Part shown: positions 5,681-64,000 of the stretch, piece by piece | Layout of the letters: each line of letters opens with the position of its first letter | Numbering within the stretch: the stretch's first letter is position 1 | Virus record (IMG/VR): IMGVR_UViG_3300006734_000008 | Coordinates: 1-64,000 of that record | From: a virus | Reading direction: 5' to 3' (one strand) | DNA length: 64,000 nucleotides | Position numbers and translations under genes: made by a program | The notes under the pieces: generated by a model | Database searches by the model: none | Told to the model about the DNA's origin: nothing | What the model saw: the letters and a program-made list of their open reading frames with translations, nothing else

Positions 5681-6847
5681 TTAATTTAATGTTTCCCAAT
5701 CAAGGTCATCGAATGAATGTGAACCTCCTCTTGGTTTTTTACTCTTTCCACCAGACCCTGACAGTTTAGTACTAGTGCTGTTACTACGGTGTCTCTTACC
5801 TAAGTCAGCCAACTTTCTATTACGGTCTGTTATTGCTTTCTTTTGAATTGGGTCAGACCCATACTTCATAATTAAAGCGTCAAAAATGAGGTCTTCTGTT
5901 TTAGCTGCCTCATCTTGATTTCTTTTAATCTTATCAGCCATATATTGAGAAATCTTAACTGTCTGACCATTCTGTTCAAATGGTACTGTTTTCTTAAACA
6001 TGTAGTCAAGAATCTCTTGCTTTTGCTGTTTAGTTTTTAGAGGGAAGTTTCTTACAGCCTCTTGTTTCTGTACGAAGTCTTCAAGGTTTTGTGTGAACTG
6101 TTCCTCTTGTTTACGTCTTGCTTCGAGTGCTCTAGCCTCTTGCTCAATCAACGCTTGTTTATCAGCTTCTTTCTTTTGAGTGAAGAACTCTTGTGCATCT
6201 TTAGCATCAATTTCCAATTCTTCTAAATCCTCAGATGTTTCAATCAACTTAGTGATTTTAGCTTCAGAGAAACCCTTAGCTTTATAAAACTCAGAAAGCA
6301 CTCGCTTAGCATTCTCTTTATCAGAGATGTCGAGTGTTGAGAAATCTGATTGTGCGTTGACCGCTATATACCTGCTAGGGTCACCACCTGCCTCTAAGTA
6401 TTCAATGTACTTACGAGAATCCTCTCCAAGTGAATCTTTGTAAGCCTGAACTTCTGAATCAATCTTACTCTGCACTGCATTCCAGATATCATCTCCTGAT
6501 TCAAACTTAGTGTCTTCTGACACTGTTAAAATTCCCTTTTCTCCTAGAGTATTTCCAATGTAAGAGAAGATATCATCTTCCTCATCATCTTCTGTTTCCT
6601 CTGGCTCATCTACTACCTCTGGAGTTTCTTCTAACTCATCTTCAAATGTAGTATCTGGAGCTGGTGTTGGGTCTACCTCAGGTTCCTCTGTTGTATCTTT
6701 AGGAGCTGGAGTAGGTGTTGGAGGAGTCGTAGGTACGCCAAATCCATCTGGCATAAATGTGCTAGACTCATCGTCTAATAGCTCCCAAGGAGAGCCTGCA
6801 TCGTCCAAAACGTCACTAAAAGTAATTTTACCTTCGTTGTTTTCCAT
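5681..6847 (-). CDS. putative scaffolding protein
   Basis: 388 aa, highly acidic N-terminus (Pro/Thr/Glu/Asp-rich) and long coiled-coil-prone K/E/Q-rich C-terminus; located between portal and capsid candidates. Confidence 0.5.
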   Translation of the reverse strand: MENNEGKITFSDVLDDAGSPWELLDDESSTFMPDGFGVPTTPPTPTPAPKDTTEEPEVDPTPAPDTTFEDELEETPEVVDEPEETEDDEEDDIFSYIGNTLGEKGILTVSEDTKFESGDDIWNAVQSKIDSEVQAYKDSLGEDSRKYIEYLEAGGDPSRYIAVNAQSDFSTLDISDKENAKRVLSEFYKAKGFSEAKITKLIETSEDLEELEIDAKDAQEFFTQKKEADKQALIEQEARALEARRKQEEQFTQNLEDFVQKQEAVRNFPLKTKQQKQEILDYMFKKTVPFEQNGQTVKISQYMADKIKRNQDEAAKTEDLIFDALIMKYGSDPIQKKAITDRNRKLADLGKRHRSNSTSTKLSGSGGKSKKPRGGSHSFDDLDWETLN

Positions 6848-16247: not shown

Positions 16248-16260
16248 TTGTTTTCTTTAG

Positions 16261-16330
16261 TTGCGGAGGTGGGAGTCGCACCCACGGAGGCTGGCTTATG
16301 AGACCAGCTGGAATACTCATTCTCCCCGCA
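16261..16330 (-). tRNA. degenerate tRNA-like gene, anticodon CAT (Met/Ile2-type), shortened D-arm
   Basis: Minus-strand read: 7-bp acceptor stem TGCGGGG/CTCCGCA (one G-T), anticodon stem CTGGT/GCCAG with 7-nt loop CTCATAA, T-arm GTGGG-TGCGACT-CCCAC, discriminator A; D-arm only about 4 bp with 4-nt loop. Confidence 0.4.
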
Positions 16331-16549
16331 TTATCCATTTGAATCTAAAAGAGCGTCGCAGTTTTTACAAAATGTACCAAAGTCTCTCTTGTGATAATCA
16401 ATACACTCTGTGTAGGTGTCATACTCTTCGTGATTACAGTTCCTTCTTTTCTTCTCCCTTCTATCAGCTTCTTCTCGTTCCCACTGTATTTGGGCTAGGA
16501 TTTGTTCCCCAATTGTTCTGAACCTTTTCTGATTCTCTTTTGAAATCAT
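16331..16549 (-). CDS. small Cys-rich (zinc-ribbon-like) protein
   Basis: 72 aa, CNHEEY...TECIDYH...FCKNCD pattern. Confidence 0.35.
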   Translation of the reverse strand: MISKENQKRFRTIGEQILAQIQWEREEADRREKKRRNCNHEEYDTYTECIDYHKRDFGTFCKNCDALLDSNG

Positions 16550-16611: not shown

Positions 16612-16645
16612 ACGTAAAAAAGACCCTCGTGGGGTCTTCTTTTGT
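16612..16645. terminator. bidirectional rho-independent terminator
   Basis: AAAAAAGACCC-tcgt-GGGGTCTTCTTTTG hairpin flanked by A-run and T-run. Confidence 0.55.
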
Positions 16646-16675: not shown

Positions 16676-17500
16676 TTAATGTTTAACAATGATTTTAACT
16701 TTCCCATTCCTTCTTATAATTCTATAATCAGTAGCCGTACTAAGTTCTTTTCCAATTATATCGTAAACAAGTGACTGTTCTACAGGATATTCAAACTCAC
16801 TTCCATTGACTACAGTTAATCCATAGTTAGTTGTAGTATTATCAAAATCCACTTGAGTAAGAGAATAGTAATAGGTAACATCTTTGTGCGCTTCTCTATC
16901 AAGATAACTATAAGTTAAGACTTGATTGCTGAATGGATTTGCAGAAGGTATCACATTGATTATTTTCCATTCTGTATAGTCAGTAGACCTCTCAAGTAGG
17001 AAGTGAGAATTATTAAATTCAGAAGCGGTGGCCCATTCTATTAAAACAGCCGTTCCAATTCTTTCCGCAGTAAATCTAATTAATTCAACAGGTAAGGGTA
17101 TATTTTGACCGCTACAGCTCCCTATTCGAGTACCATTCTTATCATCAAATTTAAGATTTGAGAAAATATCAGTATCACAATCAAGAGAAGGGTTGCTTAT
17201 AAATAAACATCCACCAACAACACTGTCGACACTCTCTATAAACCAAGTTCCTGTGCCAATAACTTTGAATTGTACCTGGTCAACAGTGTCTAGATAAGCA
17301 TTGCTATCATAACACAATACAATAATACTATCTGTACAATACGTACTATCTGGACATCCTACTAAATTAGTAGCTCCAGCTGAAAATACTCCACTTATTA
17401 GAAGTAATAGTGCAAGACTAAATTGAAAATACCAATACTTGCAGTTCTCATTTACTTTACTGTACCAATGATATAGAATTTTGTTTACTGAGAGTTTCAT
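16676..17500 (-). CDS. secreted protein with T9SS-type C-terminal sorting domain and Fn3/Ig-like domain
   Basis: N-terminal signal/TM (YFQFSLALLLLISGVFSAGA); C-terminal ~80 aa ends ...YPVEQSLVYDIIGKEL...NGKVKIIVKH, matching Por/T9SS CTD motif pattern (P-x-x-x, vYDiiGkel, terminal K-rich beta strand). Confidence 0.45.
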   Translation of the reverse strand: MKLSVNKILYHWYSKVNENCKYWYFQFSLALLLLISGVFSAGATNLVGCPDSTYCTDSIIVLCYDSNAYLDTVDQVQFKVIGTGTWFIESVDSVVGGCLFISNPSLDCDTDIFSNLKFDDKNGTRIGSCSGQNIPLPVELIRFTAERIGTAVLIEWATASEFNNSHFLLERSTDYTEWKIINVIPSANPFSNQVLTYSYLDREAHKDVTYYYSLTQVDFDNTTTNYGLTVVNGSEFEYPVEQSLVYDIIGKELSTATDYRIIRRNGKVKIIVKH

Positions 17501-17513
17501 AGTCCTTTTAAAT

Positions 17514-17546
17514 ATTCAAAAAAGCCCCCTGGGTTAGAGGGGGCTC
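17514..17546 (-). terminator. rho-independent terminator (minus strand)
   Basis: AGCCCCCT...AGGGGGCT hairpin followed on minus strand by TTTTTTGAA. Confidence 0.5.
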
Positions 17547-17564
17547 CTAATAGAGAGACTATTT

Positions 17565-27044: not shown

Positions 27045-27434
27045 ATGAAAGCATTTTTCTTCACCCTACTATTGTCCTGCTTTACATGGACTAGCTTTTC
27101 TCAAATCGTACAATACGATTATGATAGTACTGCATTTTGTTTTAACTCTAATGTTAAATCATCATGTGTAGATACTTGTTCACCAGCACAACCAGCTTCA
27201 ATAACTCTGAGTGTGGACTTAGACAGTTTTACACTATATTTTAATGGTGAACAACGAGTGTACACATTAGATAAGATGTTCAGCTTTAAAGATGAATATT
27301 TTATTCTAAAAGGTACAGCCCCAAATGATACACAGGTGAAACTTTTCATTTCACCGTACAAGTGTGTATTAGCCAACAATGAATGTAACTTACAATTCAA
27401 GTTTATAGCTTGTAAAGAAGAAGATGATGAGTGA
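27045..27434 (+). CDS. secreted Cys-containing protein
   Basis: Signal peptide MKAFFFTLLLSCFTWTSFS; 129 aa. Confidence 0.4.
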   Translation: MKAFFFTLLLSCFTWTSFSQIVQYDYDSTAFCFNSNVKSSCVDTCSPAQPASITLSVDLDSFTLYFNGEQRVYTLDKMFSFKDEYFILKGTAPNDTQVKLFISPYKCVLANNECNLQFKFIACKEEDDE

Positions 27435-28332
27435 TAAACCTATATTGATGCACAATTATCCTGATGGTACATCTTATTTCAGAACTGATGATGCTAAAAA
27501 ATCAGAGATAGTATGGCGCATCCAAAACTATGAACAACTGTGGCAATTAGCACAGTATGTTGATGCTTTTAGACAATATGATTCAATGAATCGTAGAAAG
27601 CTACAGGTAACTCTTCCTCGTCTTATTGATGCACAGGCTGACTCAAGATTTGGGCGGTATTCTTATAGTCTCAAGATAGTTCTTGATTTTCTTAATTCTT
27701 TAGATGTAGATATTTATGTTATTTATCATCCACACAATCCTCAAGCAGTGGAAATGGGTTTGAATAATGTCGCAATCTTAAAGAATTATACTTTCATTGA
27801 GAAAGTACTTCAAGACTTAGCAATAAATGTATATCATTTACCTGCAGAGTGGGTACATGACCATTATATTACAACTGTAAATGAAAGACTGTATCCTCTT
27901 GTTCATCTTTTAGCTGCTGATGCAGGAGGTTATAAGCCTCTTATGGATACAGTTAAAAGGCTAAGATGGGGAGGTAAGGTTCACTCTGCGTCTAAATCTC
28001 GTGTAGATGGTAAGTTACATCAAATTCTTTCAGTCAATGACTTTAAGGGTAAGGATGTACTCATTGTTGATGATATTTGCGTATATGGTGGAACCTTTAA
28101 AGGTTTAGCCAAATTATTACGAGAGAGAAATGCAGGAAGATTATTCCTGGCTGTCAGTCATATGACTGTACAAAACTTAGGTAAAGATTCAGTAGTACGT
28201 TACTTTGATAGAGTATACACCACCAATAGCACATATGATTACTATATGCATGTTGTTGATGAGGATGGTACTATTGAGGAAAAGCCTGATAATTTGAATG
28301 TAATTGAACTTTTTAACCCTGATAACAGATGA
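27424..28332 (+). CDS. prs: ribose-phosphate pyrophosphokinase-like type-I phosphoribosyltransferase
   Basis: PRPP-binding loop DVLIVDDICVYGGTFKG; two-domain 302-aa size; N-terminal DG-containing segment. Confidence 0.55.
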   Translation: MMSDKPILMHNYPDGTSYFRTDDAKKSEIVWRIQNYEQLWQLAQYVDAFRQYDSMNRRKLQVTLPRLIDAQADSRFGRYSYSLKIVLDFLNSLDVDIYVIYHPHNPQAVEMGLNNVAILKNYTFIEKVLQDLAINVYHLPAEWVHDHYITTVNERLYPLVHLLAADAGGYKPLMDTVKRLRWGGKVHSASKSRVDGKLHQILSVNDFKGKDVLIVDDICVYGGTFKGLAKLLRERNAGRLFLAVSHMTVQNLGKDSVVRYFDRVYTTNSTYDYYMHVVDEDGTIEEKPDNLNVIELFNPDNR

Positions 28333-29807
28333 ATCCATTTTTAGGAACTGATGGGTACAAAACAGGTCACATGCCTATGTATCCAGAGGGAACAAGTTTG
28401 GTTGTATCCAACTTTACACCTCGAAGCAATAAGTATGCACCAAATGGAATAGACAGCGTAGTTGTCTTTGGACTCCAAATGGTCATGCATCAAATACACG
28501 ATGGTTTTCAACGTGATTTCTTCAATCAACCCAAAAGAGCAGTCTGTAATGAGATTAAAGACGAGTATTCCATGTACCTAGGTATGGATTATGATGTCTC
28601 TCATATCGAAGCCCTGTGGGATTTAGGTTTTCTCCCTATTGAAATGAAAGCCTTGGAAGAAGGAACGTTGTGTCCCATTGGTGTACCCGTGTTAACCATT
28701 AAGAATACTTATGAAGAGTTCTTCTGGTTGACAAACTTCCTGGAGACTTTAATCTCCAACTTGTTGTGGAAACCTATTACATCCGCAACAATTGCCCTTG
28801 AGTTCAAGAAAGTACTCACTAAATGGGCACTCAAGACCGATGCTGATAATGTCGGCTTTGTGGATTTTCAAGGACATGATTTCTCTATGAGAGGCATGGA
28901 CTCCCTCGAAGCTGTCATTAGTTCAGGATTAGGTCATGCAACAAGCTTCTTAGGTTCTGATAGTTTGCCAACAATACATGGCGCCAGAAAATACTATCGT
29001 GAACCTGATGGAGTGATTTACTCAGTAAATGCTACCGAGCACTCAGTGATGTGTGCTGGTGGTCATGAAACTGAAATTGACACATTTCGTAGGCTTATGT
29101 CTATCTTTCCTAAAGGTATTCTCTCCATTGTATCTGATACATGGGACTTGTGGAAAGTGTTGACAGCTTATTTGCCTGAATTACATGATGAAATTCTTGC
29201 AAGAGATGGTAAAATTGTCATTCGTCCTGATTCTGGTAATCCTGCTGACATCCTTTGTGGAACTGTAATGGATGACCGAGAAGACATGAAAACTTTACCT
29301 GAACACAAAGGTGTAATTGAACTCCTTTGGGATGAATTTGGTGGAACTGTAAATGAGCAGGGATACAAAGTTCTAAATCCTAAGATTGGAGCAATCTATG
29401 GAGACTCTATCACCTTGGAAAGAGCTGAAGAAATATGTCAACGGTTGGAACAGAAAGGCTTTGCAAGTACTAACGTGGTACTGGGCATAGGAAGCTTTAC
29501 TTACCAGTTCAACACTCGTGACACTTTTGGTTTTGCTATGAAAGCAACTTATGTAGAAATTACAGATGCCGAGGGAAAAGTAATTGGTAGAGAAATCTAC
29601 AAAGACCCTATTACTGATGACGGAACTAAAAAGAGTGCCAAGGGACTACTTCAAGTTGTGAAAACCGCTGATGGTCTTGTATTAAAAGACCAAGTAAGTT
29701 GGTTAGAAGAAAGAGAGGGGGAACTCCAAACAATCTATGAGGATGGACTATTCTTCAACCCAACAACTTTAACCCAAATCAGGGAGCGTGTCGCAGCCTT
29801 GGTTTAA
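28329..29807 (+). CDS. nadV: nicotinamide phosphoribosyltransferase (NadV/NAMPT family)
   Basis: N-terminal GTDGYKTGH motif, about 490 aa, type II PRTase-like architecture; ATGA overlap with prs-like gene. Confidence 0.65.
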   Translation: MNPFLGTDGYKTGHMPMYPEGTSLVVSNFTPRSNKYAPNGIDSVVVFGLQMVMHQIHDGFQRDFFNQPKRAVCNEIKDEYSMYLGMDYDVSHIEALWDLGFLPIEMKALEEGTLCPIGVPVLTIKNTYEEFFWLTNFLETLISNLLWKPITSATIALEFKKVLTKWALKTDADNVGFVDFQGHDFSMRGMDSLEAVISSGLGHATSFLGSDSLPTIHGARKYYREPDGVIYSVNATEHSVMCAGGHETEIDTFRRLMSIFPKGILSIVSDTWDLWKVLTAYLPELHDEILARDGKIVIRPDSGNPADILCGTVMDDREDMKTLPEHKGVIELLWDEFGGTVNEQGYKVLNPKIGAIYGDSITLERAEEICQRLEQKGFASTNVVLGIGSFTYQFNTRDTFGFAMKATYVEITDAEGKVIGREIYKDPITDDGTKKSAKGLLQVVKTADGLVLKDQVSWLEEREGELQTIYEDGLFFNPTTLTQIRERVAALV

Positions 29808-30326: not shown

Positions 30327-30400
30327 ACACTCATAGCTCAATTGGATAGAGCGACAGCCTTCTAAGCTGTAGGTTATAGGTTCGACTCCTATTGGGTGTA
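30327..30400 (+). tRNA. tRNA-Arg (anticodon TCT)
   Basis: Acceptor ACACTCA/TGGGTGT, D-arm GCTC-AATTGGATA-GAGC, anticodon arm ACAGC-CTTCTAA-GCTGT, T-arm ATAGG-TTCGACT-CCTAT, discriminator A. Confidence 0.8.
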
Positions 30401-30492
30401 CAACACTAGGTCGCACAGGCGTAGGGATTTAATAATTATAGATGATAAATATAGTCGCCTACAGAGAGTTGAAATACTTTCTCTAGTGGTAT

Positions 30493-30578
30493 GCAGGAGT
30501 GGTGGAATTGGTAGACACGCAGGACTTAAAATCCTGTGAGCAGTAATGTTCGTGAGGGTTCGACTCCCTCCTCCTGCA
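30493..30578 (+). tRNA. tRNA-Leu (anticodon TAA), type II with long variable arm
   Basis: Acceptor GCAGGAG/CTCCTGC, anticodon arm CAGGA-CTTAAAA-TCCTG, long variable arm, T-arm GAGGG-TTCGACT-CCCTC. Confidence 0.8.
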
Positions 30579-30592
30579 CTAAAAAAACAATA

Positions 30593-48071: not shown

Positions 48072-48879
48072 ATTTAAATACGTTAGAATACGTTCAAGAC
48101 ACCCATCACATGAAGTTTTAAGAAAGAATCCTTCCTTAAGATTTGATGGAAAGTCTGTATTTCGTCTTGGCAGCACTACGCAGGTAGATGTTCCTCACGA
48201 AATCAATACCGTTGAAGCTGTTAAAGTATCTTCAAATAAACTGAAGATGAAAGAAGCTTTCAAGAATGGTAAGATACAAAGCCCAAAGATGTACACCATT
48301 ACAGACCCTTTTAATACTGCTGAGATTGAAAAATATCCATTAGTAGCTAAGAAAGTTCTTGGTAGTAGGGGACGGGGTATGCAGTTCATTGAGAATGAAG
48401 AGCAATTACTACAATTCTTTAATGGTAATACTCAAGGATACTACTTAGAGCAATACTTTTCAGGAGCTAGAGAGTATCGTTTACATGTTTCAGCACTTGG
48501 ATGCTTCTATGCTTGCCGTAAGCTTAGAAAATCTGATGCTGAAGAGAGATGGTATTTCAATTCAAACAACTGTATCTGGGCTACAGAGAAAGAACAAGAG
48601 TTGGATGAGGATGGGAATTTCGTAAAATTCACTAATGTGGATTCTGAACAATTCAATAAACCAACTACTTGGTGCCAAATTGTAGCACAATCACAGAAAG
48701 CTTTATCTGCGGTAGGGCTTGATGTCGGAGCAGTTGATGTTAGAGTTAACACTAAAGGAGACTTTCAAATCTTGGAGACTAATTCAGCTCCTTCATTTGG
48801 TGAGAAGACTACTTTGATGTATCTCGAACACTTACCGCAACTCATGAATCATAAATACGGACTCAATCACAAATCATAA
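48049..48879 (+). CDS. ATP-grasp ligase (RimK/glutathione-synthetase-like)
   Basis: YPLVAKKVLGSRGRGMQFI (K-x-x-GS-x-G), E-x-N-type C-terminal motifs LETNSAPSF. Confidence 0.55.
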   Translation: METMKTPKFKYVRIRSRHPSHEVLRKNPSLRFDGKSVFRLGSTTQVDVPHEINTVEAVKVSSNKLKMKEAFKNGKIQSPKMYTITDPFNTAEIEKYPLVAKKVLGSRGRGMQFIENEEQLLQFFNGNTQGYYLEQYFSGAREYRLHVSALGCFYACRKLRKSDAEERWYFNSNNCIWATEKEQELDEDGNFVKFTNVDSEQFNKPTTWCQIVAQSQKALSAVGLDVGAVDVRVNTKGDFQILETNSAPSFGEKTTLMYLEHLPQLMNHKYGLNHKS

Positions 48880-50921
48880 TGTTAAGTTTATTTATCTTTG
48901 CTTTTGCCTTAGTGAATTTTATTTCACTCCTAATATTTAAGGGTAAGAGTAATGTGTTAAGTTGCGGATTAGGCGCATATAATGGTAAAGTAAAGCCAAA
49001 CGAACTCCTTCTCAAAGTTATTGGACAATACAATGAAGAAAGAGGTATACACTCTTGCGGAATTGCTGTCAACAATTTCATTGATGTAGGAGTAGGAAGT
49101 ATTGCACGTTTTAGGAATTTTGTCAAAGACTTTGACTTTCCTAAGATGACAAAGACCTTCAATGTAATCCTTCACACAAGGAAAGCAACTGTAGGTGCAC
49201 ACACTAAAGAGAATGCCCACCCTTTTGGGTTTGGGTGTGATACTGATGACCCAGAAGTTCCAGATGAAGAGGTTGGATACAACTTTATTGGAGCACATAA
49301 TGGAAGTCTCATAGACTGGAGAGACCTTACAAAGGATATTGAAATTCCTGAAGAGGTAACAGTCAATATGGATTCACAAGCTCTCCTTTACCGCTTATAT
49401 CATGATAAGAACTACAAGGTTCTGTCTGAGTATAAAGGAGCTGCAGCTCTTATCTTCTATAACTCGAATAATCCTGATAGGCTCTATGCCTTTAAGGGGG
49501 CAGCGGGTGATGATGAAGAAAGACCGCTGTACTATGTTCAGTATGTGAATAGTAGAGGTAAGGTTACTGGTGTATATCTATCTTCTATGAAAGAACCATT
49601 TGAGTTCGCTGGACTTAAAGACATCAAAGAAGTTCCTAACAACACTATCCTTACTTTTGAAGGTGGTGAAGTTATCAATGAGCTTAAAGTAAAAAGAGGC
49701 AAGGAATTAAGTACAGCATATGCTCGTAACAGTACAGCTGTAACAACAACTCCTTCTACGAGAACTAATGCCAGAGTTTCTCATTCAGGAGCACGTCAAA
49801 TTCCTATCAGCACTTTCACAGGTTCAGCCAAGGCTCATCAACTTCTTTTAACCCCAAACGAATATTTCGTGGGCAGCCATATCGTAGGCGGAAAGATTTA
49901 TTACCGTTGCGGACGTTACTTCCGTAATGGTCATTTAATCAATGGTATATGGCTTCTTCGCGAAGATGGTGAACAACTTGGATGGTATATGACTCAAGCT
50001 GTAGCCAATAAAGGTTTGAGGGATTTCCGCAAAAAGTACAATAAGAATAAGAAGAAGGATAAACTCAATGCTTCACTATATTACTTTGCAAAAGGTATTA
50101 TGTGTAAGGACTTTGAGGCCATGAATGATGCTAATGCAATGTTAGATGAGAATAGTACACGTTTAGGTGATTTATCTAAATGTTCGATATATCCCATCAC
50201 CTTTGTAGCATCAACTAATGATAACTATAGAGTATCTTCTTATCCTGCTTGGGACGGTAAACTAACTTTCAGTGCTAAGTTTAAGCCAGAATTTAGTTTA
50301 TACACCTTTGAGTACAATAATGGATACTTGGTAGATGTACAACCTGTGGACAGTAGAACTCCTTTCTTTGAAACTTTCTTAAAAGGAATGGATTTGAATA
50401 AAAAAACTAAGGCTTCCTTAGATTTCAAAGACATTTTTTCAGAATTGTTAGAGCCAAAAAAGGAGAAGCCCGTAGAGAAGAAGACACCTACGACTTCTGG
50501 GCAGAACTCTACGGATGGTATGCTCCAACAGTCTTCAGAGCTTAGTGCAGAAGAGGAGAAAGCAGCTCAGGAGCGTGTTGATGCCCTTATCAATGAGAGT
50601 TGGGATAAGTTCACAGAGACTACAAACTCTGATTGGACAGATATGGACGAAATTGCCATTGCACAAAGTCTTGACCAAGCTGAACAGCTAGTTCAAACTT
50701 ATGCAGAAGGTATGGGTCTATTTGAACCTGACCAAGTAGGTTATGAGATTAGTACAAAGCTTTTAGAAGCAGCGTATTATATAGCCAAGAAAGTTCAAGA
50801 GATTGGAGATGACTGTGGGTATGTATTTACTGATACAGAAACAGACCAACTTAAGTTAATTATCATGTCATATGAAATTTTAGAACATGTCGAAGGAAAC
50901 AAATTCAAAGAAGATAAGTAA
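48879..50921 (+). CDS. class-II (Ntn) glutamine amidotransferase domain protein with about 400-aa C-terminal extension
   Basis: SCG near N-terminus, ILHTRKATVG...ENAHPF and GAHNGSLID matching PurF/GlmS/AsnB glutaminase motifs; N-terminal 27 aa hydrophobic, true start uncertain (propeptide or misassigned). Confidence 0.5.
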   Translation: MLSLFIFAFALVNFISLLIFKGKSNVLSCGLGAYNGKVKPNELLLKVIGQYNEERGIHSCGIAVNNFIDVGVGSIARFRNFVKDFDFPKMTKTFNVILHTRKATVGAHTKENAHPFGFGCDTDDPEVPDEEVGYNFIGAHNGSLIDWRDLTKDIEIPEEVTVNMDSQALLYRLYHDKNYKVLSEYKGAAALIFYNSNNPDRLYAFKGAAGDDEERPLYYVQYVNSRGKVTGVYLSSMKEPFEFAGLKDIKEVPNNTILTFEGGEVINELKVKRGKELSTAYARNSTAVTTTPSTRTNARVSHSGARQIPISTFTGSAKAHQLLLTPNEYFVGSHIVGGKIYYRCGRYFRNGHLINGIWLLREDGEQLGWYMTQAVANKGLRDFRKKYNKNKKKDKLNASLYYFAKGIMCKDFEAMNDANAMLDENSTRLGDLSKCSIYPITFVASTNDNYRVSSYPAWDGKLTFSAKFKPEFSLYTFEYNNGYLVDVQPVDSRTPFFETFLKGMDLNKKTKASLDFKDIFSELLEPKKEKPVEKKTPTTSGQNSTDGMLQQSSELSAEEEKAAQERVDALINESWDKFTETTNSDWTDMDEIAIAQSLDQAEQLVQTYAEGMGLFEPDQVGYEISTKLLEAAYYIAKKVQEIGDDCGYVFTDTETDQLKLIIMSYEILEHVEGNKFKEDK

Positions 50922-52758
50922 GCTCACAAAAGTGGAAGCCTATGACCAAAATATGAATCTACAAAAGGTTCCAAGGTCTGAAACTAGGTTTATCAAGGGA
51001 GCATACTATATCATTGACAAAGGATGTGTTCTGATGTCAGATGGTCAATGGTACAGAGTAAATCATCCTAATATAATCTTTGATGAGGCAACTGGTACAT
51101 TTAAATTCTTTCAGGATACTGCTGCCAGACCTTACATCAAAGACTTTGTGGATGGTAAATATGTGATTGCATATAGTAGTAAAATACCAACGAATGCTGC
51201 AGATAATATTTTTGATTTGTATTATGGTGGAAACTTTGGTAATACTACTGGAATGAATAGTGTTTACATTGCAAAGGTTATAAAACCAATGTTCCATGAT
51301 GAACAGGTTCAGAAGATGTGTGATTGTTATGGTAGAAGAATTGAAATTTATGTTCTTCCTATAGCAAGTGAAGCAGTCGAAAAATCTGGAGCTATCAAGG
51401 AACCTCGCAATGGATTCTATGTTCCAGCACTTCCAAAAATTGTAAGAAGGTTATTCAGAAAACCTACTCGCAACCAAGGAAACATCTACACAAAAGCGTT
51501 ACAGTATAATGTTTCAACTTCTGAATATTACAGGAAGAAGGCTGAGGCAGGTTATGCAGCTAACACTTTGACACCAAGTAAAACTCTTTTAGAGGTTGCA
51601 GAACATTTACAAGGTCGTACATTTGGTGTAGAGATTGAAACAGTGTCTGGACAAATCCCAGAAGATACTTTAGCTAAGTTAGGATTTCTTCCACTAAGAG
51701 ATGGCTCTCTGGATGGTGGTATTGAGTATACCTCAATTCCATTTTCAGGAGCTAAAGGTCTTGCAGTTATGAAAAAATTCTATACTGAGATACAGAATCT
51801 CTGTAGAGTAAATGAGATGTGCTCTTTCCACGTTCACTTCGGTGGATTTGAAAGAAGTAAACTCAATGCTCTCACACTGTACAAACTGTGCTACAGACTG
51901 CAGGAGGAAATGTTTGATATGATTCCACCATACAAAAAAGATTATAGATATTGGACAAGTAAGAGACAGACAAAAGACCATTGTCAATCTTTGAAAAGCT
52001 TGAATCTGAATCTTGACCGTATTGATACAAACAAGGCAAGAATGAAAGTAGAGTTTAACAAATTCTTTGAGTTCTTGACTGAAGGTTCTAAGGAGAATCA
52101 ACGTTTCAATTGGGATAACAGACATTCTCCTAAAGAGGGGGCAAACAAATGGAATCTTAATTCCAGATACTTCTGGGTTAATTTCTTACCGTATGCCTTC
52201 CTTCCTCAAGAGACTGTAGAGTTCAGAATCTTCAATTCTCCAATGGATTTTAACACAGCTCTGAATTACTTACTCATTTCCAATGCTATTCTATCTTATG
52301 TAGAAGACCACGGAGATATTGTAAGGGACAATAGAGAGAAAATTACATTGGAAGATGTAATCAGTTCTGCATATCCTGAGGCTTTTGCTAACAAAATCCT
52401 TGATTTTATCAATGACAAACGTCAGCAATACCATAAGGATTTCATCGGTGATAATATCTATGCTGAAATTGAAAGGTCTAATGCTCCATATGAAATTGAT
52501 AATCTTAGTGATGCTCAATTAGATAAGAGAATTAAACTTCTCCAAAATCTACCGCCTGAGGTTGAACCTGAAAGGGAAGCTCCTCAGAGAATGAGACCAC
52601 AAAGATTTGCAGTAAATATGGAGGCAATTCGTATAAATGCAGAAGAGGCTTTTCACCGTGTGGAAAGAGAGAATGCAGAACTAAGAGAGCAACAAAGGGT
52701 TAATCAAAATCAAGTAAATCAAGATGATTTTGGCATCTTTGATATAAACGATGAGTAA
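50887..52758 (+). CDS. GS-like amidoligase family protein (large)
   Basis: GVEIETVSG (E-x-E), CSFHVHFGG (H-x-H), central fold features resembling Amidoligase_2/glutamine-synthetase-like enzymes; 623 aa. Confidence 0.4.
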   Translation: MSKETNSKKISKLTKVEAYDQNMNLQKVPRSETRFIKGAYYIIDKGCVLMSDGQWYRVNHPNIIFDEATGTFKFFQDTAARPYIKDFVDGKYVIAYSSKIPTNAADNIFDLYYGGNFGNTTGMNSVYIAKVIKPMFHDEQVQKMCDCYGRRIEIYVLPIASEAVEKSGAIKEPRNGFYVPALPKIVRRLFRKPTRNQGNIYTKALQYNVSTSEYYRKKAEAGYAANTLTPSKTLLEVAEHLQGRTFGVEIETVSGQIPEDTLAKLGFLPLRDGSLDGGIEYTSIPFSGAKGLAVMKKFYTEIQNLCRVNEMCSFHVHFGGFERSKLNALTLYKLCYRLQEEMFDMIPPYKKDYRYWTSKRQTKDHCQSLKSLNLNLDRIDTNKARMKVEFNKFFEFLTEGSKENQRFNWDNRHSPKEGANKWNLNSRYFWVNFLPYAFLPQETVEFRIFNSPMDFNTALNYLLISNAILSYVEDHGDIVRDNREKITLEDVISSAYPEAFANKILDFINDKRQQYHKDFIGDNIYAEIERSNAPYEIDNLSDAQLDKRIKLLQNLPPEVEPEREAPQRMRPQRFAVNMEAIRINAEEAFHRVERENAELREQQRVNQNQVNQDDFGIFDINDE

Positions 52759-60935: not shown

Positions 60936-63900
60936 CTAGTCGTAGATTTCTAAAATCTTAATACCATTCTCAGGATTCAACATGTAACCATTAAGACCAA
61001 GTAGTTTCATAAATGCTACATTGATTTTAGGGTCACCCTTTTCTGCAAGGTTTCCAAAGATGGTTTTATAGTTCTCATTTCTTTGATAGTAGGCTGTATT
61101 TTGACCAAATAGAGTTGGTCCAATAAGCCCTGTTGTACGGAATAATTTTTCCCCAACTGACCAGATAGGTGAAGGAGTACGGAAACTCTTCAATGTACCA
61201 CCTGGATTTAGTGGGAATCCCCAAGTATTGATACTACCTAATCCAAAGTTGTAGAAGGAAAGTTCTGATTGTGCTCTCATAGACCAATACAGTGCATACT
61301 TCATACCTAAAGTCATTCCAATACCCCTCTCATCATCATCGTCAGCATCCTTTAATCCTGCTGCTAATAATGCAGCTATACTTGACAGTAGTAACATATA
61401 AGTTATCTCAGCTGCAGTTCTTTTAACATTTGCAACTTCCTGTTTAGTAAGATTGTGTGACTGATTAGTTAGAAGATTCCATAATTCATCTCTTTCTGAA
61501 ATCAATTTACCAAAGAATGTTCTGTAATAACCTTCATATTCTGCACCTAACTCATAATCATAGCCCCAACCCTGGAATCTTCTTCTTACGTTGGGAGCAA
61601 TAAACTTACGATACATCATAAGTAGTCTACCTGCATTATGACGTTCAATCAATGGTCTATCAAATGAATTGTATACACCATTGAATCTCTTATTCAGTGC
61701 ATGAATTTTTCGTTCAGCTTCGTGGTTGAGGAATTCTACACCAGGTTGTACGGCCAAATTACCATCCTTATCTACACTATAAGCATCATACAGAGAAATG
61801 GTTTTACCACCTGCTGTTTTTACTTTAGTGTCTTTTAAGATGGACATCATCACTTTAACTTGGGCAGCGTGTTCACCCTTATGCATAAAGGAGAACCAAC
61901 CTTTACTTCCCCACATTTTCTTTACTTTACCTTGAGACATCTTACGACCGTATTCATCTATAAACTCTCCTTGTAAAGCATCGTATAATTCAGCTAACTG
62001 TCCAATCTTAGACTTCTTGGCTGTACCCAACATATCAGACATAAAGCCAGGCTCATTCTTTCTGTATTCAGCCTTAGCCCAGAACCATGTCTTTGTTGAA
62101 AAATGCTCTCCTGACCAAGCATCAATAGCTGTAGATATATGTGCAGCCATTGAGTTCGCCACAGCAAGAACAGGATTACCACCAATTTGTGTGAATGATG
62201 CAAATCCCATTAGAGCATCTGTTATTTTATTCCAGTTGACACCACCAGCATTAGACTTCAATCGAGTCTTACCGTAGATGTGCATATCTATAAGAGCTTC
62301 CAACATAGCAGCAGTATTATTACCTTTATGCTTACGGAAGTACTCTCCTAAGAATTTATTACCAATCTTGGTATCTTTTAATTTATCTTCAGCAGAATGT
62401 AGTGGCCCTTTTTCACTAACTGTTTTAGATAGAGCTTTAGCTACAGGTTCTAATTGTACCTGTGCTGCATGTTTATTAGCTGCAGCATAATAAGTAAGGA
62501 CAGAACCCATAAGGTCAAGAGATGTATTCTCCATACCTAAGTCAAGCTTATATAGATGAGGAATAATCTTCCTATCCTCACCGTATTCTTCTTGCTCATT
62601 AGGTAAGAATCTAGTAGCACCTTCCCAAGTCCTTCTTAACCAACCTTTAGTATCACCTTCTCTAACCCTGTCATTGGCAATTTTCTCAATACCAGGTAGG
62701 CGATACATCATTGGAGTATCTTGAATCATTTGTTGACCTGATAAGTAAGTGGATAATAGGAACTTATAGTATTTCTCTTTAGCTCCACCATCCATTACTG
62801 CATTCCATTTCTCATTACGGAACATATCCCAGTTAGGCATAGTAACTTCTTTACCAACTGCTTTTGTTCCTTCAGGAGTAACCACAAAGTTTTTGTCGAA
62901 CCACTCTTCATAAGAAGTAGTGGATGCTTTTGCTTCACGAATCTTTGCATGATATCCTTCAATAAGTACAGCTTTTTCACCAGGCTTATATGGATTATCA
63001 ATTGTGATATCCTCAGCCTCTCTTGAGACTCTGTATCCTTTTTCTACTGCCATCTTTTGTAGTAGTTGATATTTTAAAGTAATCTCATTTGCTTCTGCAT
63101 ATATAGGGTTAGTAGTTTTTAATATTTTAGCTTCTATTTCTGCCTCTACAGCCAAGTCTTTCATTGCCTTACTGTAAGCATTATAATCAAGCTTTTGTAC
63201 AAATGAGTAATATTGTTTATCTCCCTCCTGAATTACTTCATAGAATGGTTTGTTAAACTCTTTAACATTATCTCTAGATACACCAGCTTTCTTTGCATAT
63301 TCATCAAAAGCCTTAGCTGCAATCTTTTCTACACCGAACAGATGCTCTCTAACCTTATCAAAAGCTTCTTTCATATGCAGAGCAAACGTAGCAATGATAC
63401 TGTTATTAACACTAACAGCAGGATTAAGATGAGCAGACATAATAGAAATGTCTTTGTAGTCACCAGTGTTTAGCATTCTAAGAATAGACTCTTTAGATTC
63501 ATAGTACTTATCCTCAATACGAGCTAGTCTATTTTCTAATCCCCTTCTACGTCTATCTGACAATTTCTCATTAGTCAGTTTCTTTTTGATGATTGCAATC
63601 TCTTCAGCAAGATTACTCTTCTTATCCTGATTAGGTAATTGTTCTGAAAGGAGTTCAGCCAATATAGGATTAACCCTATTCTTAGAGATACGCTCAACTC
63701 TATTGAACTCAGAGATAATCTTATCTAACATATCCAATACGGAATTATCCTCTCTTGGAATATCTTTAGAGTTTTCATATAGGTTCTGTAGTTCCTCTAC
63801 AATACCTCTGAATAGGTCTTGTTCAGACTTAAATAAGTCAAGTTGTTGTAGGATATCAGCAGTTGAGATGTCCTTATCAGTATCAATTCTATCAACAAAA

Positions 63901-64000
63901 GCTTGGAATCTTTTAGCTAAACTGTTCTTATCAGTTACAAACTCTTGATGCATATACTCAATGAACTCAGCTATTTGACTGAAGTCATTACCAGTTTGAA
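60936..64000 (-). CDS. large virion-associated protein, partial (tape-measure-like candidate), continues beyond window
   Basis: ORF over 1005 aa still open at window end; coiled-coil-rich N-region, hydrophobic segments near C-terminus. Confidence 0.35.
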   Translation of the reverse strand, partial: QTGNDFSQIAEFIEYMHQEFVTDKNSLAKRFQAFVDRIDTDKDISTADILQQLDLFKSEQDLFRGIVEELQNLYENSKDIPREDNSVLDMLDKIISEFNRVERISKNRVNPILAELLSEQLPNQDKKSNLAEEIAIIKKKLTNEKLSDRRRRGLENRLARIEDKYYESKESILRMLNTGDYKDISIMSAHLNPAVSVNNSIIATFALHMKEAFDKVREHLFGVEKIAAKAFDEYAKKAGVSRDNVKEFNKPFYEVIQEGDKQYYSFVQKLDYNAYSKAMKDLAVEAEIEAKILKTTNPIYAEANEITLKYQLLQKMAVEKGYRVSREAEDITIDNPYKPGEKAVLIEGYHAKIREAKASTTSYEEWFDKNFVVTPEGTKAVGKEVTMPNWDMFRNEKWNAVMDGGAKEKYYKFLLSTYLSGQQMIQDTPMMYRLPGIEKIANDRVREGDTKGWLRRTWEGATRFLPNEQEEYGEDRKIIPHLYKLDLGMENTSLDLMGSVLTYYAAANKHAAQVQLEPVAKALSKTVSEKGPLHSAEDKLKDTKIGNKFLGEYFRKHKGNNTAAMLEALIDMHIYGKTRLKSNAGGVNWNKITDALMGFASFTQIGGNPVLAVANSMAAHISTAIDAWSGEHFSTKTWFWAKAEYRKNEPGFMSDMLGTAKKSKIGQLAELYDALQGEFIDEYGRKMSQGKVKKMWGSKGWFSFMHKGEHAAQVKVMMSILKDTKVKTAGGKTISLYDAYSVDKDGNLAVQPGVEFLNHEAERKIHALNKRFNGVYNSFDRPLIERHNAGRLLMMYRKFIAPNVRRRFQGWGYDYELGAEYEGYYRTFFGKLISERDELWNLLTNQSHNLTKQEVANVKRTAAEITYMLLLSSIAALLAAGLKDADDDDERGIGMTLGMKYALYWSMRAQSELSFYNFGLGSINTWGFPLNPGGTLKSFRTPSPIWSVGEKLFRTTGLIGPTLFGQNTAYYQRNENYKTIFGNLAEKGDPKINVAFMKLLGLNGYMLNPENGIKILEIYD

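What the first reader, a model, noticed from the sequence alone, without database searches (positions are those of the whole stretch)
16676..17500. Phage gene encoding a protein with a T9SS (Por) C-terminal sorting domain
The ORF has an N-terminal signal/TM segment, a central Fn3/Ig-like beta domain and a C-terminal about 80 aa ending YPVEQSLVYDIIGKELSTATDYRIIRRNGKVKIIVKH. This follows the conserved motif pattern of Bacteroidetes type IX secretion CTDs (vYdiiGrlv then a terminal K-rich strand). A phage carrying a T9SS cargo signal implies a Bacteroidetes host. It also implies a phage protein exported through the host T9SS to the cell surface during infection (superinfection exclusion, surface remodelling or adhesin mimicry). 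It is embedded among small minus-strand late genes and is flanked by terminators on both sides.
Basis: partly seen in the sequence, partly recalled or inferred. Interest (0 to 1): 0.6.

Follow-up and report, generated by a model that had tools for sequence, protein, structure and literature searches.

The report
Phage secreted protein, truncated T9SS tail
A crAss-like phage of Bacteroidota carries a small exported protein that descends from host surface proteins secreted by the type IX system, but its C-terminal secretion domain has shrunk to about 42 residues that no longer pass any test for that domain.

Summary
The ORF (16676-17500, minus strand, 274 aa) is real, and the window is a crAss-like phage of Bacteroidota. 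The protein has a signal peptide, two tandem Ig/FnIII-like domains (aa 49-135 and 136-231) and a 42-aa tail.

It is not a canonical T9SS C-terminal domain (CTD) protein. TIGR04183 and PF18962 give no hit even at E<=10. A CTD model built from its own homologues scores it at noise. The tail is 42 aa, against 67-108 aa for known type A CTDs, and AlphaFold gives only four short low-confidence strands.

The T9SS link is still real. Same-architecture relatives carry genuine CTDs (30-36 bits against a cutoff of 23), in bacteria and in one phage. The query tail keeps a look-alike of the essential beta3-beta4 loop motif (VYDIIGKEL; 1 of 1000 shuffles) and a Lys-rich last strand.

Of the 80 best viral homologues, 70 have a short ~40-aa tail instead of a CTD, and nearly all have Sec signal peptides. 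Phage-encoded T9SS cargo has been reported before (2019, 2020).

Verdict: a new variant of a known kind. Whether the tail still drives T9SS export is open.

The parts
16676..17500 (-). Complete ORF, 274 aa plus stop codon
   Evidence: The identical protein is called on 16 contigs.
17372..17500 (-). Signal peptide region, aa 1-43. It has a long n-region (aa 1-26) and an h-region FSLALLLLISGVFSAGA (aa 27-43), with a probable signal peptidase I site at AGA|TN.
   Evidence: Sequence. AF2 predicts a helix at aa 21-38. Family members align here with classical MKK-hydrophobic-AxA|QCP signal peptides.
17096..17356 (-). N-terminal Ig/FnIII-like domain, aa 49-135. It is bounded by invariant C49 (the CP(D)S..C motif) and C129, with six conserved Cys in all.
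   Evidence: pLDDT 89-96 with family alignment A7. The whole model matches tandem FnIII pairs in Foldseek. Invariant columns are given.
16808..17095 (-). 'LPVEL' FnIII-like domain, aa 136-231. This is the domain that precedes the T9SS CTD in bacterial homologues.
   Evidence: pLDDT 93-97. FnIII hits. Shared with 75,134 representative proteins at E<=1e-3.
16679..16807 (-). Short C-terminal tail, aa 232-274. It is a non-canonical, abbreviated CTD-like segment.
   Evidence: No TIGR04183 or PF18962 hit. The homologues' CTD HMM gives 3.7 bits. pLDDT is 58-68, with four short strands at aa 243-246, 252-256, 258-264 and 267-273.
16736..16768 (-). VYDIIGKELST, aa 245-255. A look-alike of the CTD beta3-loop-beta4 motif.
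   Evidence: On a half-CTD profile it scores 8.6 bits, reached by 1 of 1000 shuffles. D247, I248, I249 and G250 are invariant with P0002. The motif is defined in PMC11285876.
16679..16702 (-). KVKIIVKH, aa 267-274. A Lys-rich terminal strand that is a possible counterpart of the CTD 'motif C-t.'
   Evidence: Sequence, plus the AF2 strand at aa 267-273. K267, K269, I270 and I271 are conserved with P0002. It is not statistically distinguishable from chance.
17518..17548 (-). Upstream hairpin plus U-run (terminator-like), lying between the preceding gene and the ORF start
   Evidence: -17.3 kcal/mol, z -2.4.
16612..16642 (-). Downstream hairpin plus U-run (terminator-like), about 35 nt after the stop codon
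   Evidence: -18.2 kcal/mol, z -6.1.

Best explanation
What it is: an accessory, 'moron'-like gene of a crAss-like Bacteroidota phage. It encodes a Sec-exported protein made of two tandem Ig/FnIII-like domains. It descends from a family of small host T9SS type A cargo proteins with the layout signal peptide, Cys-bounded N-domain, 'LPVEL' FnIII-like domain, CTD.

What changed: in this phage lineage the ~75-aa CTD is replaced by, or cut down to, a 42-aa tail. The tail cannot form the seven-stranded CTD sandwich. It corresponds at best to the beta3-beta4-beta6-beta7 sheet, which carries the two motifs known to matter for T9SS recognition.

How it most likely works:
- Shown: the domain architecture, the homology, the absence of a canonical CTD, the signal-peptide-like N-terminus, and the flanking hairpins.
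- Inferred: the protein is made during infection, crosses the inner membrane via Sec, is cleaved near AGA|TN, and folds with disulfides in the periplasm as a binding module.
- Inferred, about 0.4: the short tail still acts as a compact envelope-sorting element through the T9SS (PorV/SprA) and brings the protein to the cell surface or the medium.
- Inferred, about 0.35: the tail no longer supports outer-membrane translocation and the protein acts in the periplasm.

In either case it would remodel or mask envelope components of the infected cell.
For: Phage and host:
- Phage identity and a Bacteroidota host are supported.

Architecture and lineage:
- Same-architecture relatives have an invariant C49 and C129. 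The short-tail members are in alignment A5 and the full-CTD members in A6.
- TIGR04183 scores above its 23-bit cutoff in P0268 (30.3), P0269 (33.4), P0270 (30.6), P0273 (36.0) and P0275 (36.1). It gives nothing for the query, P0002, P0122 or P0253.

Genomic contexts:
- CTD-bearing members are bacterial (P0275 and P0273), apart from one that is phage-borne (P0268, next to portal, ClpP and capsid E genes).
- Short-tail members with readable context are phage-borne. These are the window itself, P0002, P0122 and P0125 on a 137-kb contig with rIIB. PHROG hits support this.
- These phage contigs share no other gene with the window, so the gene moves as an accessory gene.

The tail:
- The beta3-beta4 motif look-alike is reached by 1 of 1000 shuffles. 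Both essential CTD motifs lie in the beta4-beta3-beta6-beta7 sheet (PMC11285876).
- For HBP35, the T9SS targeting signal was mapped to the last 22 residues, as cited in that paper.
- Among the 80 best IMG/VR homologues, 70 have short tails and about 7 have genuine CTDs. Of 66 non-redundant ones, 61 have Q-rule-type signal peptides with passengers of 215-1034 aa. So the short tail is a conserved, selected C-terminal module of secreted phage proteins, not random decay.
- The tail is conserved between the query and P0002 at 47% overall identity.

Gene boundaries:
- Terminator-like hairpins lie on both sides.
Against: - No CTD model recognises the tail. hhalign of short tails against CTDs gives probability 12% locally and 1% globally.
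- The query's tail is only marginally similar to the abundant viral short-tail class: 3.5 bits with 82 of 2000 shuffles as high, and 6.5 bits in a leave-one-out test.
- The alignment of the tail to the CTD is ambiguous. A1 implies two deletions and A6 implies one.
- AF2 confidence in the tail is low (pLDDT 58-68).
- Published work shows that an intact, folded CTD is needed for RgpB secretion (PMC11285876).
- Some family members end right after the YD(I/L)LGRK motif and lack any terminal strand. That argues against a T9SS signal role, at least for them.
- The 26-aa n-region is atypical for a signal peptide.
- No promoter-like site was found between the upstream hairpin and the start codon.
- The host, and hence the presence of a T9SS, is not identified. 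Bacteroides spp. lack a T9SS (PMC11285876).
Confidence: 0.5

Rival explanations
1. One reading: the ORF carries a bona fide T9SS type A CTD of about 80 aa. It is a regular T9SS cargo that is secreted, cleaved by PorU and anchored on the host surface.
For: Homologues are annotated as T9SS type A sorting-domain proteins. The tail has a vYDxxGkxv-like motif and a K-rich C-terminus. Phage-encoded CTD proteins do exist (P0268; PMC7468147; PMC6949934).
Against: TIGR04183 and PF18962 give no hit even at E<=10. A CTD HMM built from its own homologues gives 3.7 bits, which is noise among the window's ORFs. Only 42 aa lie beyond the FnIII-like domain, against 67-108 aa for known CTDs. There is no seven-stranded sandwich in either AF2 model, and no CTD appears among the structural matches.
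Confidence: 0.05
2. The tail is a non-functional remnant or merely a structural cap on the FnIII-like domain. The protein is a Sec-exported periplasmic (or inner/outer-membrane-associated) binding protein that never uses the T9SS. It might act in superinfection exclusion or in interference with envelope machinery.
For: The tail fails all CTD tests. Family members show a length series down to tails that end just after YD(I/L)LGRK. That series looks like progressive loss of the signal while one strand is kept. The six conserved Cys fit a periplasmic, oxidising location. A folded CTD is required for RgpB secretion.
Against: The ~40-aa tail is strongly conserved across hundreds of phage proteins with very different passenger regions. 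That is the pattern of a sorting or anchoring module rather than decay. The tail is also conserved between the query and P0002.
Confidence: 0.33
3. The protein is a virion component: an Ig-like decoration or fibre accessory displayed on the phage particle, like other Ig/FnIII domains on phage structural proteins.
For: It has a tandem Ig/FnIII fold. There is a weak PHROG hit to a 'virion structural protein' (phrog_15647, E=0.045). The gene lies upstream of the head module. P0268 lies just after structural genes.
Against: The query and essentially all relatives have an N-terminal Sec-type signal peptide (61 of 66 viral relatives). The conserved Cys pairs point to the periplasm. The bacterial homologues are secreted T9SS cargo. 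The gene is flanked by its own terminator-like hairpins and is embedded among small non-structural ORFs. The PHROG hit is not significant.
Confidence: 0.05
4. The protein is a lipoprotein, cleaved by signal peptidase II at LVG|C49 and anchored by the lipidated Cys.
For: The query has L46-V47-G48-C49 directly after the hydrophobic segment, and C49 is invariant in the family.
Against: In most family members the residue before the invariant Cys is Gln (AxA|QCP...). That is not a lipobox. It is a signal peptidase I site that follows the Bacteroidetes Q-rule (PMC5837995). C49 co-varies with the invariant C129, as expected for a disulfide. In addition, Asn at position -4 does not fit the usual lipobox pattern (my own knowledge of the PROSITE rule).
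Confidence: 0.05

Closest known systems
T9SS type A CTD cargo proteins of Bacteroidota (TIGR04183 / PF18962 Por_Secre_tail), specifically the small 'signal peptide - CP(D)S N-domain - LPVEL FnIII-like - CTD' proteins such as P0273 and P0275
   Same: They share the signal peptide, the Cys-bounded N-domain with invariant C49 and C129, and the FnIII-like domain (24-26% identity over the full length for P0268-P0273). The extra C-terminal segment sits in the same position. The query also has a beta3-loop-beta4-like motif and a Lys-rich last strand.
   Different: The query's C-terminal segment is 42 aa instead of about 70-85 aa. It lacks the YPNP strand region and the 'L..G.Y' strand region. It fails TIGR04183 and PF18962 and cannot form the 3+4 sandwich.
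Phage-encoded T9SS sorting-domain proteins: crAss-like 'cluster 2' phages (de Jonge et al. 2019, PMC6949934) and 'Cryophage' (Bellas et al. 2020, PMC7468147). Also P0268 in phage contig L014.
   Same: These are phages of Bacteroidota that carry genes derived from T9SS cargo. In crAss-like phages the genes lie upstream of the head section, as this ORF does. They are variable accessory genes.
   Different: Those proteins carry recognisable type A sorting domains, and this one does not. Their passenger domains (BACON, glycoside hydrolases, PA14) differ from the tandem Ig/FnIII domains here.
Viral 'FnIII-like + short tail' secreted proteins (tail consensus KKIVKIINLLGQEVNESYKGIVIEIYDDGTIEKIIK). 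No Pfam or NCBIfam model matched the members I scanned.
   Same: They have the same LPVEL FnIII-like domain followed by a tail of about 40 aa at the extreme C-terminus. They have Sec signal peptides and are phage-borne. The motif order is similar: [DN]-h-h-G-[KQ]-E-h ... [DN]-G-x-h-[KR]-x-I-h-[KR]. Several same-architecture relatives of the query match this class significantly (P0161 21.4 bits, P0166 14.5, P0125 12.9, P0253 10.0).
   Different: The query's own tail scores only 3.5 bits (82 of 2000 shuffles as high) and P0002's does not match at all. It is a divergent outlier or an independent shortening.
Ig-like/FnIII domains on phage structural proteins
   Same: The fold is the same: a tandem FnIII-like beta-sandwich.
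   Different: Those are parts of virion proteins without signal peptides. This protein and its relatives have Sec signal peptides and conserved Cys pairs.

Membership tests
T9SS type A CTD (TIGR04183 / PF18962) | Profile HMM match above the curated threshold | tested here: not met
   There is no hit at E<=10 in Pfam or NCBIfam. Relatives P0268-P0275 score 30-36 bits against a 23-bit cutoff in the same test. A custom CTD HMM built from the homologues gives the query 3.7 bits.
T9SS type A CTD (TIGR04183 / PF18962) | A 67-108-aa compact seven-stranded 3+4 Ig-like beta-sandwich (PMC11285876) | tested here: not met
T9SS type A CTD (TIGR04183 / PF18962) | Motif Lbeta3beta4 with a conserved Gly (RgpB IFDMNGRRV) | tested here: inconclusive
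   VYDIIGKELST aligns to vyDlsGrlvls of a half-CTD profile at 8.6 bits, reached by 1 of 1000 shuffles. Relatives are weaker (P0122 6 of 1000, P0002 56 of 1000). hhalign gives a local P of 0.0024 and a probability of 12%.
T9SS type A CTD (TIGR04183 / PF18962) | Motif C-t.: a terminal beta-strand with a conserved Lys | tested here: inconclusive
   The sequence ends KVKIIVKH, and AF2 predicts a strand at aa 267-273. This part adds no significant profile score.
T9SS type A CTD (TIGR04183 / PF18962) | An N-terminal Sec signal peptide on the same protein, with the CTD at the extreme C-terminus | tested here: met
   The hydrophobic h-region at aa 27-43 with an AGA|TN site aligns with the classical signal peptides of the family. 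No dedicated signal-peptide predictor was available, and the n-region is unusually long.
T9SS type A CTD (TIGR04183 / PF18962) | T9SS-dependent secretion, and a host that has a T9SS | not testable with these tools
   The host is inferred only as Bacteroidota. The nearest cultured relatives infect Flavobacterium, which has a T9SS, but TerL identity is only 34%.
T9SS type B (CHU_C / TIGR04131) and type C (NF033708) CTDs | Profile HMM match | tested here: not met
   There are no hits. The CHU_C proteins from phage contigs L005 and L006 find nothing in the window.
'LPVEL' FnIII-like pre-CTD domain family | Sequence homology over the roughly 90-aa domain, and an FnIII fold | tested here: met
   264 homologues were found, with E down to 1e-14 beyond the full-length relative. 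The shared region is query aa 135-222. The domain occurs in 75,134 representative proteins. pLDDT is about 95, with FnIII structural matches.
Viral short-tail class (NLLGQEV...YEDGT..K) | A match to the tail profile built from 56 viral tails | tested here: inconclusive
   The query scores 3.5 bits (82 of 2000 shuffles as high) and P0002 scores -0.7. Same-architecture relatives P0161, P0166, P0125, P0253 and P0136 score 10-21 bits, with 0-1 of 2000 shuffles as high. An earlier leave-one-out test gave 6.5 bits.
Phage moron (autonomous accessory transcription unit) | A gene flanked by its own terminator and promoter, and present in otherwise unrelated phages | tested here: inconclusive
   Terminator-like hairpins lie on both sides. 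Relatives occur in phage contigs that share no other gene with the window. However, no promoter-like site lies between the upstream hairpin and the ATG. The scan covers only sigma-70-type promoters, not Bacteroidota promoters.
Bacterial lipoprotein (signal peptidase II substrate) | A lipobox [LVI][ASTVI][GAS]C that is conserved in relatives | tested here: not met
   The query has LVGC, but most relatives have Q at position -1 (AxA|QCP). This fits signal peptidase I and the Q-rule (PMC5837995).

The most novel reading that the evidence does not exclude
The ~40-aa tail that replaces the CTD in most phage-borne members of this family, of which the query's tail would be a divergent form, may be a previously unrecognised miniature T9SS-related module. 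It would be equivalent to only the beta4-beta3-beta6-beta7 face of a type A CTD. There are two possible roles. It could be a compact secretion or anchoring signal that lets phages route diverse passenger domains to the surface of infected Bacteroidota without PorU-type processing. Or it could be a translocon- or PorV-binding decoy that blocks host T9SS traffic, for example to remove T9SS-dependent surface receptors and exclude superinfecting phages.
Probability: 0.3. Interest if true: 0.75.

Novelty: new variant of a known kind. Interest (0 to 1): 0.5.

Why it matters
- T9SS cargo recognition is thought to need a folded 70-100-aa domain. A family in which phages systematically replace that domain with a conserved ~40-aa tail, while keeping Sec signal peptides and variable passengers, offers a natural experiment on the minimal determinants of T9SS targeting. 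Alternatively, it may reveal how phages interfere with the T9SS.
- The family also shows that crAss-like and other Bacteroidota phages export host-derived Ig/FnIII binding proteins into the envelope of infected cells. That bears on superinfection exclusion, receptor masking and surface remodelling in gut and environmental Bacteroidota.
- For annotation, it is a caution. Homology to 'T9SS type A sorting domain-containing protein' can run entirely through the pre-CTD FnIII-like domain, so a hit does not show that a sorting domain is present.

Tried and rejected
1. Pfam, NCBIfam and PHROG scans of the ORF gave nothing useful. There was only a sub-threshold DUF4761 hit and phrog_15647 at E=0.045.
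2. Megablast of 8 kb around the ORF against the phage collection found no match. tblastn of the ORF against the same collection found only four huge uncultured phages, which match the FnIII-like domain.
3. phmmer of the 46-aa tail against PDB sequences found no hit at E<=10.
4. Both AF2 jobs left the tail at low confidence. Foldseek against afdb50 was unavailable.
5. A tail-only profile search of the 5.8-billion-protein database returned only 28-82-aa contig-end fragments, so it says nothing about architecture.
6. The search for related loci failed with A7 on genome contigs and with A8 on viral contigs, because no stretch was conserved enough.
7. A degenerate DNA pattern for NLLGQEV(x5)G in viral contigs gave 13 hits. 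Three were genuine tails, all preceded by the FnIII-like domain. One tail-like ending (found in two loci, L102 and L112) had no FnIII-like domain. That is too few to decide whether the tail is an autonomous module.
8. The lipoprotein reading was rejected because relatives have Q at position -1.
9. The virion-decoration reading was rejected because of the signal peptides.
10. I looked for other CTD, FnIII-like or CHU_C genes in the window and found none.
11. I looked for an alternative start codon that would shorten the 26-aa n-region and found none in frame.
Full report
**The observation**

The identical protein is called on 16 metagenomic contigs from several samples, the longest 102 kb. It is therefore a stable gene and not an assembly artefact.

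A hydrophobic segment (aa 27-43) follows an unusually long n-region of 26 aa. No in-frame ATG, GTG or TTG occurs between codon 2 and codon 45.

On the coding strand, a GC-rich hairpin followed by a U-run lies 24 nt upstream of the ATG. It folds at -17.3 kcal/mol, z -2.4. A second hairpin lies about 35 nt after the stop codon, at -18.2 kcal/mol, z -6.1. The 'flanked by terminators' remark therefore holds.

**The surroundings**

The window is a phage. PHROG profiles identify the following:
- a large terminase (3.7e-113), a portal (2.4e-129) and a major head protein (6.7e-101);
- a DNA polymerase, a primase, a helicase and ribonucleotide reductase;
- PhoH, NAMPT and other genes.

The terminase finds 159 phage records, all below 60% identity. 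They are dominated by Flavobacterium FpV4/Fpv20-like phages (34% identity; genus Fipvunavirus), Bacteroides crAss-like phages and Cellulophaga phages. A Bacteroidota host is therefore well supported.

The ORF lies among small minus-strand ORFs, between PhoH and a tRNA-Met, upstream of the packaging and head module on the same strand. Whether these are 'late' genes cannot be told from sequence.

Pfam and NCBIfam scans at E<=10 give no PF18962, TIGR04183, CHU_C or type C hit.

AlphaFold2 with 120 homologues gives a very confident beta-sandwich for aa 139-231 (pLDDT about 96). The last 43 residues reach only pLDDT about 60. With a family-specific alignment, the N-terminal region aa 49-135 also becomes confident (pLDDT 89-96). 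The tail stays at 58-68, with four short strands at aa 243-246, 252-256, 258-264 and 267-273.

**Why it nevertheless looked like T9SS**

The protein has 264 homologues, and most carry PF18962. BLAST coordinates show that the shared region is query aa 135-222. In the homologues this region ends about 90-100 residues before their C-terminus.

Pfam places the genuine CTD in those last 70-75 residues. A profile of the homologues hits solved T9SS CTDs 8glk_D, 8glj_D and RgpB 5hfs.

The homology therefore runs through an 'LPVEL...W.TASE.NN..F..ERS...YYRLKQVDFDG' FnIII-like domain that precedes the CTD. It does not run through the CTD itself. This domain is very common: 75,134 representative proteins at E<=1e-3, often in tandem.

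**The real family**

An exhaustive HMMER search with a query+P0002 profile, followed by a profile search, revealed small proteins that match over the full length. They share a classical signal peptide and an N-domain that opens with an invariant Cys-Pro and closes with an invariant Cys (C49 and C129 in the query). The FnIII-like domain and a C-terminal segment follow.

In most members the signal peptide ends AxA|QCP. This is a signal peptidase I site that exposes Gln, the Bacteroidetes 'Q-rule' (PMC5837995). That argues against the lipoprotein reading that the query's LVGC suggests.

The C-terminal segment varies within the family:
- P0268, P0269, P0270, P0273 and P0275 have a genuine CTD, with TIGR04183 at 30-36 bits against a 23-bit cutoff.
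- The query, P0002, P0122, P0125, P0253 and others have about 40 aa.
- Several members end directly after a YD(I/L)LGRK motif.

The genomic contexts are as follows:
- P0275 and P0273 are bacterial. P0275 sits among many Por_Secre_tail genes.
- P0268 lies in a phage contig with portal, ClpP, capsid E and an M15 peptidase.
- The short-tail members with readable context are all phage-borne. These are the window, P0002, P0122 and P0125 on a 137-kb contig with rIIB. PHROG hits support this.
- These phage contigs share no other gene with the window, so the gene travels as an accessory gene.

**What the tail is**

The results are mixed.
- A CTD HMM built from the homologues scores the query at 3.7 bits, which is noise among the window's 359 ORFs.
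- hhalign of short tails against CTDs gives a local P of 0.0024 (probability 12%, 15 columns) and a global probability of 1%.

Published work defines type A CTDs as 67-108-aa seven-stranded 3+4 sandwiches. It finds two elements essential for secretion: the beta3-beta4 loop motif (RgpB IFDMNGRRV, with a conserved Gly) and the C-terminal strand with a conserved Lys. Both lie in the beta4-beta3-beta6-beta7 sheet (PMC11285876).

I built a CTD profile restricted to the beta3-beta4 and beta6-beta7 columns. The results were:
- The query tail scores 8.6 bits, reached by 1 of 1000 shuffles.
- The family's genuine CTDs range from -1.5 to 12.6 bits on the same truncated profile, with the five TIGR04183-positive ones at 3.6-12.6.
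- Nearly all of the query's score comes from VYDIIGKELST matching vyDlsGrlvls.
- Relatives are weaker: P0122 6 of 1000 and P0002 56 of 1000.

The alignment of the tail to the CTD is ambiguous. A1 implies two deletions and A6 implies one.

My reading is that the tail is positionally homologous to the CTD. It retains look-alikes of the two functional motifs and has lost the beta1, beta2 and beta5 sheet. That it is CTD-derived is an inference. That it is not a canonical CTD is shown.

**A wider pattern**

A scan of IMG/VR found at least 247 viral contigs that encode a relative.

Among the best 80, 70 end in a short tail of 29-58 aa after the DFDG motif. Almost all are of one conserved type, with consensus KKIVKIINLLGQEVNESYKGIVIEIYDDGTIEKIIK. 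About 7 have a genuine CTD, at 33-56 bits on the CTD HMM. In the general homologue set the proportions are reversed, with about 16-17 short tails and about 100 long ones.

Of 66 non-redundant viral proteins, 61 start with a Bacteroidota-type signal peptide. Their passenger regions range from 215 to 1034 aa. These are therefore secreted proteins, not virion parts. They share a conserved extreme C-terminus behind variable passengers, which is the signature of a sorting or anchoring module.

The tail HMM matches several of the query's same-architecture relatives:
- P0161 scores 21.4 bits, P0166 14.5, P0125 12.9, P0136 10.7 and P0253 10.0, with 0-1 of 2000 shuffles as high.
- The query scores only 3.5 bits (82 of 2000) and P0002 does not match.
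- Genuine CTDs do not match it either, with a mean of 1.5 bits.

At least one short-tail protein is bacterial (P0065). Whether the tail can occur without the FnIII-like domain remains open.

**Mechanism**

Shown:
- the architecture, and the homology to T9SS cargo through the pre-CTD domain;
- the absence of a canonical CTD;
- the signal-peptide-like N-terminus and the conserved Cys;
- the phage context and the flanking hairpins.

Inferred: the protein is exported by Sec, cleaved near AGA|TN, and folds with disulfides as a tandem Ig/FnIII binding module in the envelope of the infected cell.

For the last step I consider two outcomes nearly equally likely.
- The short tail may still act through the T9SS as a compact signal (about 0.4). 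This is supported by the retained motifs, by the strong conservation of short tails behind variable passengers in phages, and by the report that 22 C-terminal residues suffice for HBP35.
- The tail may no longer support outer-membrane translocation, so that the protein works in the periplasm (about 0.35). This is supported by the failure of all CTD tests, by the need for an intact folded CTD in RgpB, and by family members that lack any terminal strand.

A canonical CTD, a virion role and a lipoprotein each rate about 0.05.

**Comparison with what is known, and novelty**

Phage-encoded T9SS sorting-domain proteins have been described before. In crAss-like 'cluster 2' phages they were noted 'upstream of the head section', the same position as here (PMC6949934). 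Three variable genes of 'Cryophage' were also described this way (PMC7468147). Q-rule secreted proteins have been noted in Porphyromonas phages (PMC10367356). The concept is therefore not new.

What differs here is that the sorting domain is cut down to about 40 aa, and that this short form predominates among phage-borne relatives. I found no description of that in the library searches I ran. Those searches cover open-access papers only.

I classify the finding as a new variant of a known kind, with moderate interest (0.5). The gene nevertheless points to a testable question about the minimal determinants of T9SS targeting, and about how Bacteroidota phages use or subvert that system.

Noticed in passing
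IMG/VR loci L021-L100 (e.g. L026 3001-3411, L104, L113): Most phage-borne homologues of the FnIII-like domain (70 of the 80 best) end in a conserved ~40-aa tail (…NLLGQEV…G..IE.YEDGT..K…) instead of a T9SS CTD. Of 66 non-redundant ones, 61 have Bacteroidota Q-rule signal peptides, with passenger regions of 215-1034 aa. No Pfam or NCBIfam model matched the members I scanned.
   Followed up: partly
L005 1168-1977 and L006 9588-10658: Phage-like contigs that carry short-tail relatives also encode signal-peptide proteins with a CHU_C domain (a T9SS type B CTD), one of them with PKD_6. So phages of Bacteroidota carry type B cargo genes as well.
   Followed up: partly
L014 10001-10828: P0268 is a same-architecture relative with a genuine TIGR04183 CTD (30.3 bits). 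It sits in a phage contig directly after the portal, ClpP, capsid and tail-region genes and before PAS-domain and M15 peptidase genes.
   Followed up: partly
L102 and L112 (183-aa ORF ending …RYYNLFGQEVVLRERGYYIATDGMRSRLIYRREE): A viral ORF has a short-tail-like C-terminus (13 bits on the tail HMM) but no FnIII-like domain. This is the only hint that the tail can occur on its own.
   Followed up: no
window 16260-16330 (-), 30327-30401 (+), 30493-30579 (+): The phage carries three tRNA genes: Met(CAT), Arg(TCT) and Leu(TAA). The tRNA-Met lies two genes downstream of the ORF.
   Followed up: no
window 16331-16549 (-): A 72-aa Cys-rich ORF (…CNHEEYDTYTEC…FCKNC…) lies between the ORF's downstream hairpin and the tRNA-Met. 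It may be a zinc-ribbon protein.
   Followed up: no
window 27424-29807 (+): An NAD-salvage pair: a ribose-phosphate pyrophosphokinase-like gene and a nicotinamide phosphoribosyltransferase (phrog_448, E 6e-188).
   Followed up: no
window 48879-52758 (+): Adjacent glutamine-amidotransferase-like and amidoligase-like genes (680 and 623 aa).
   Followed up: no
window 60936-63953 (-) and 5681-6847 (-): Large ORFs of 1005 aa and 388 aa have no PHROG match at E<=1e-5. The 388-aa ORF lies between the portal and major head genes.
   Followed up: no
window ~22000 and ~61000: GC skew and coding strand switch together at these two points. They divide the window into a minus-strand block (structural genes plus small genes), a plus-strand replication and metabolism block, and a further minus-strand block.
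   Followed up: no
LR745206.1, LR756500.1, LR756502.1, LR756504.1 (uncultured phages of 460-640 kb): In the annotated phage collection, the only records that hold the FnIII-like domain are four huge uncultured phages.
   Followed up: no
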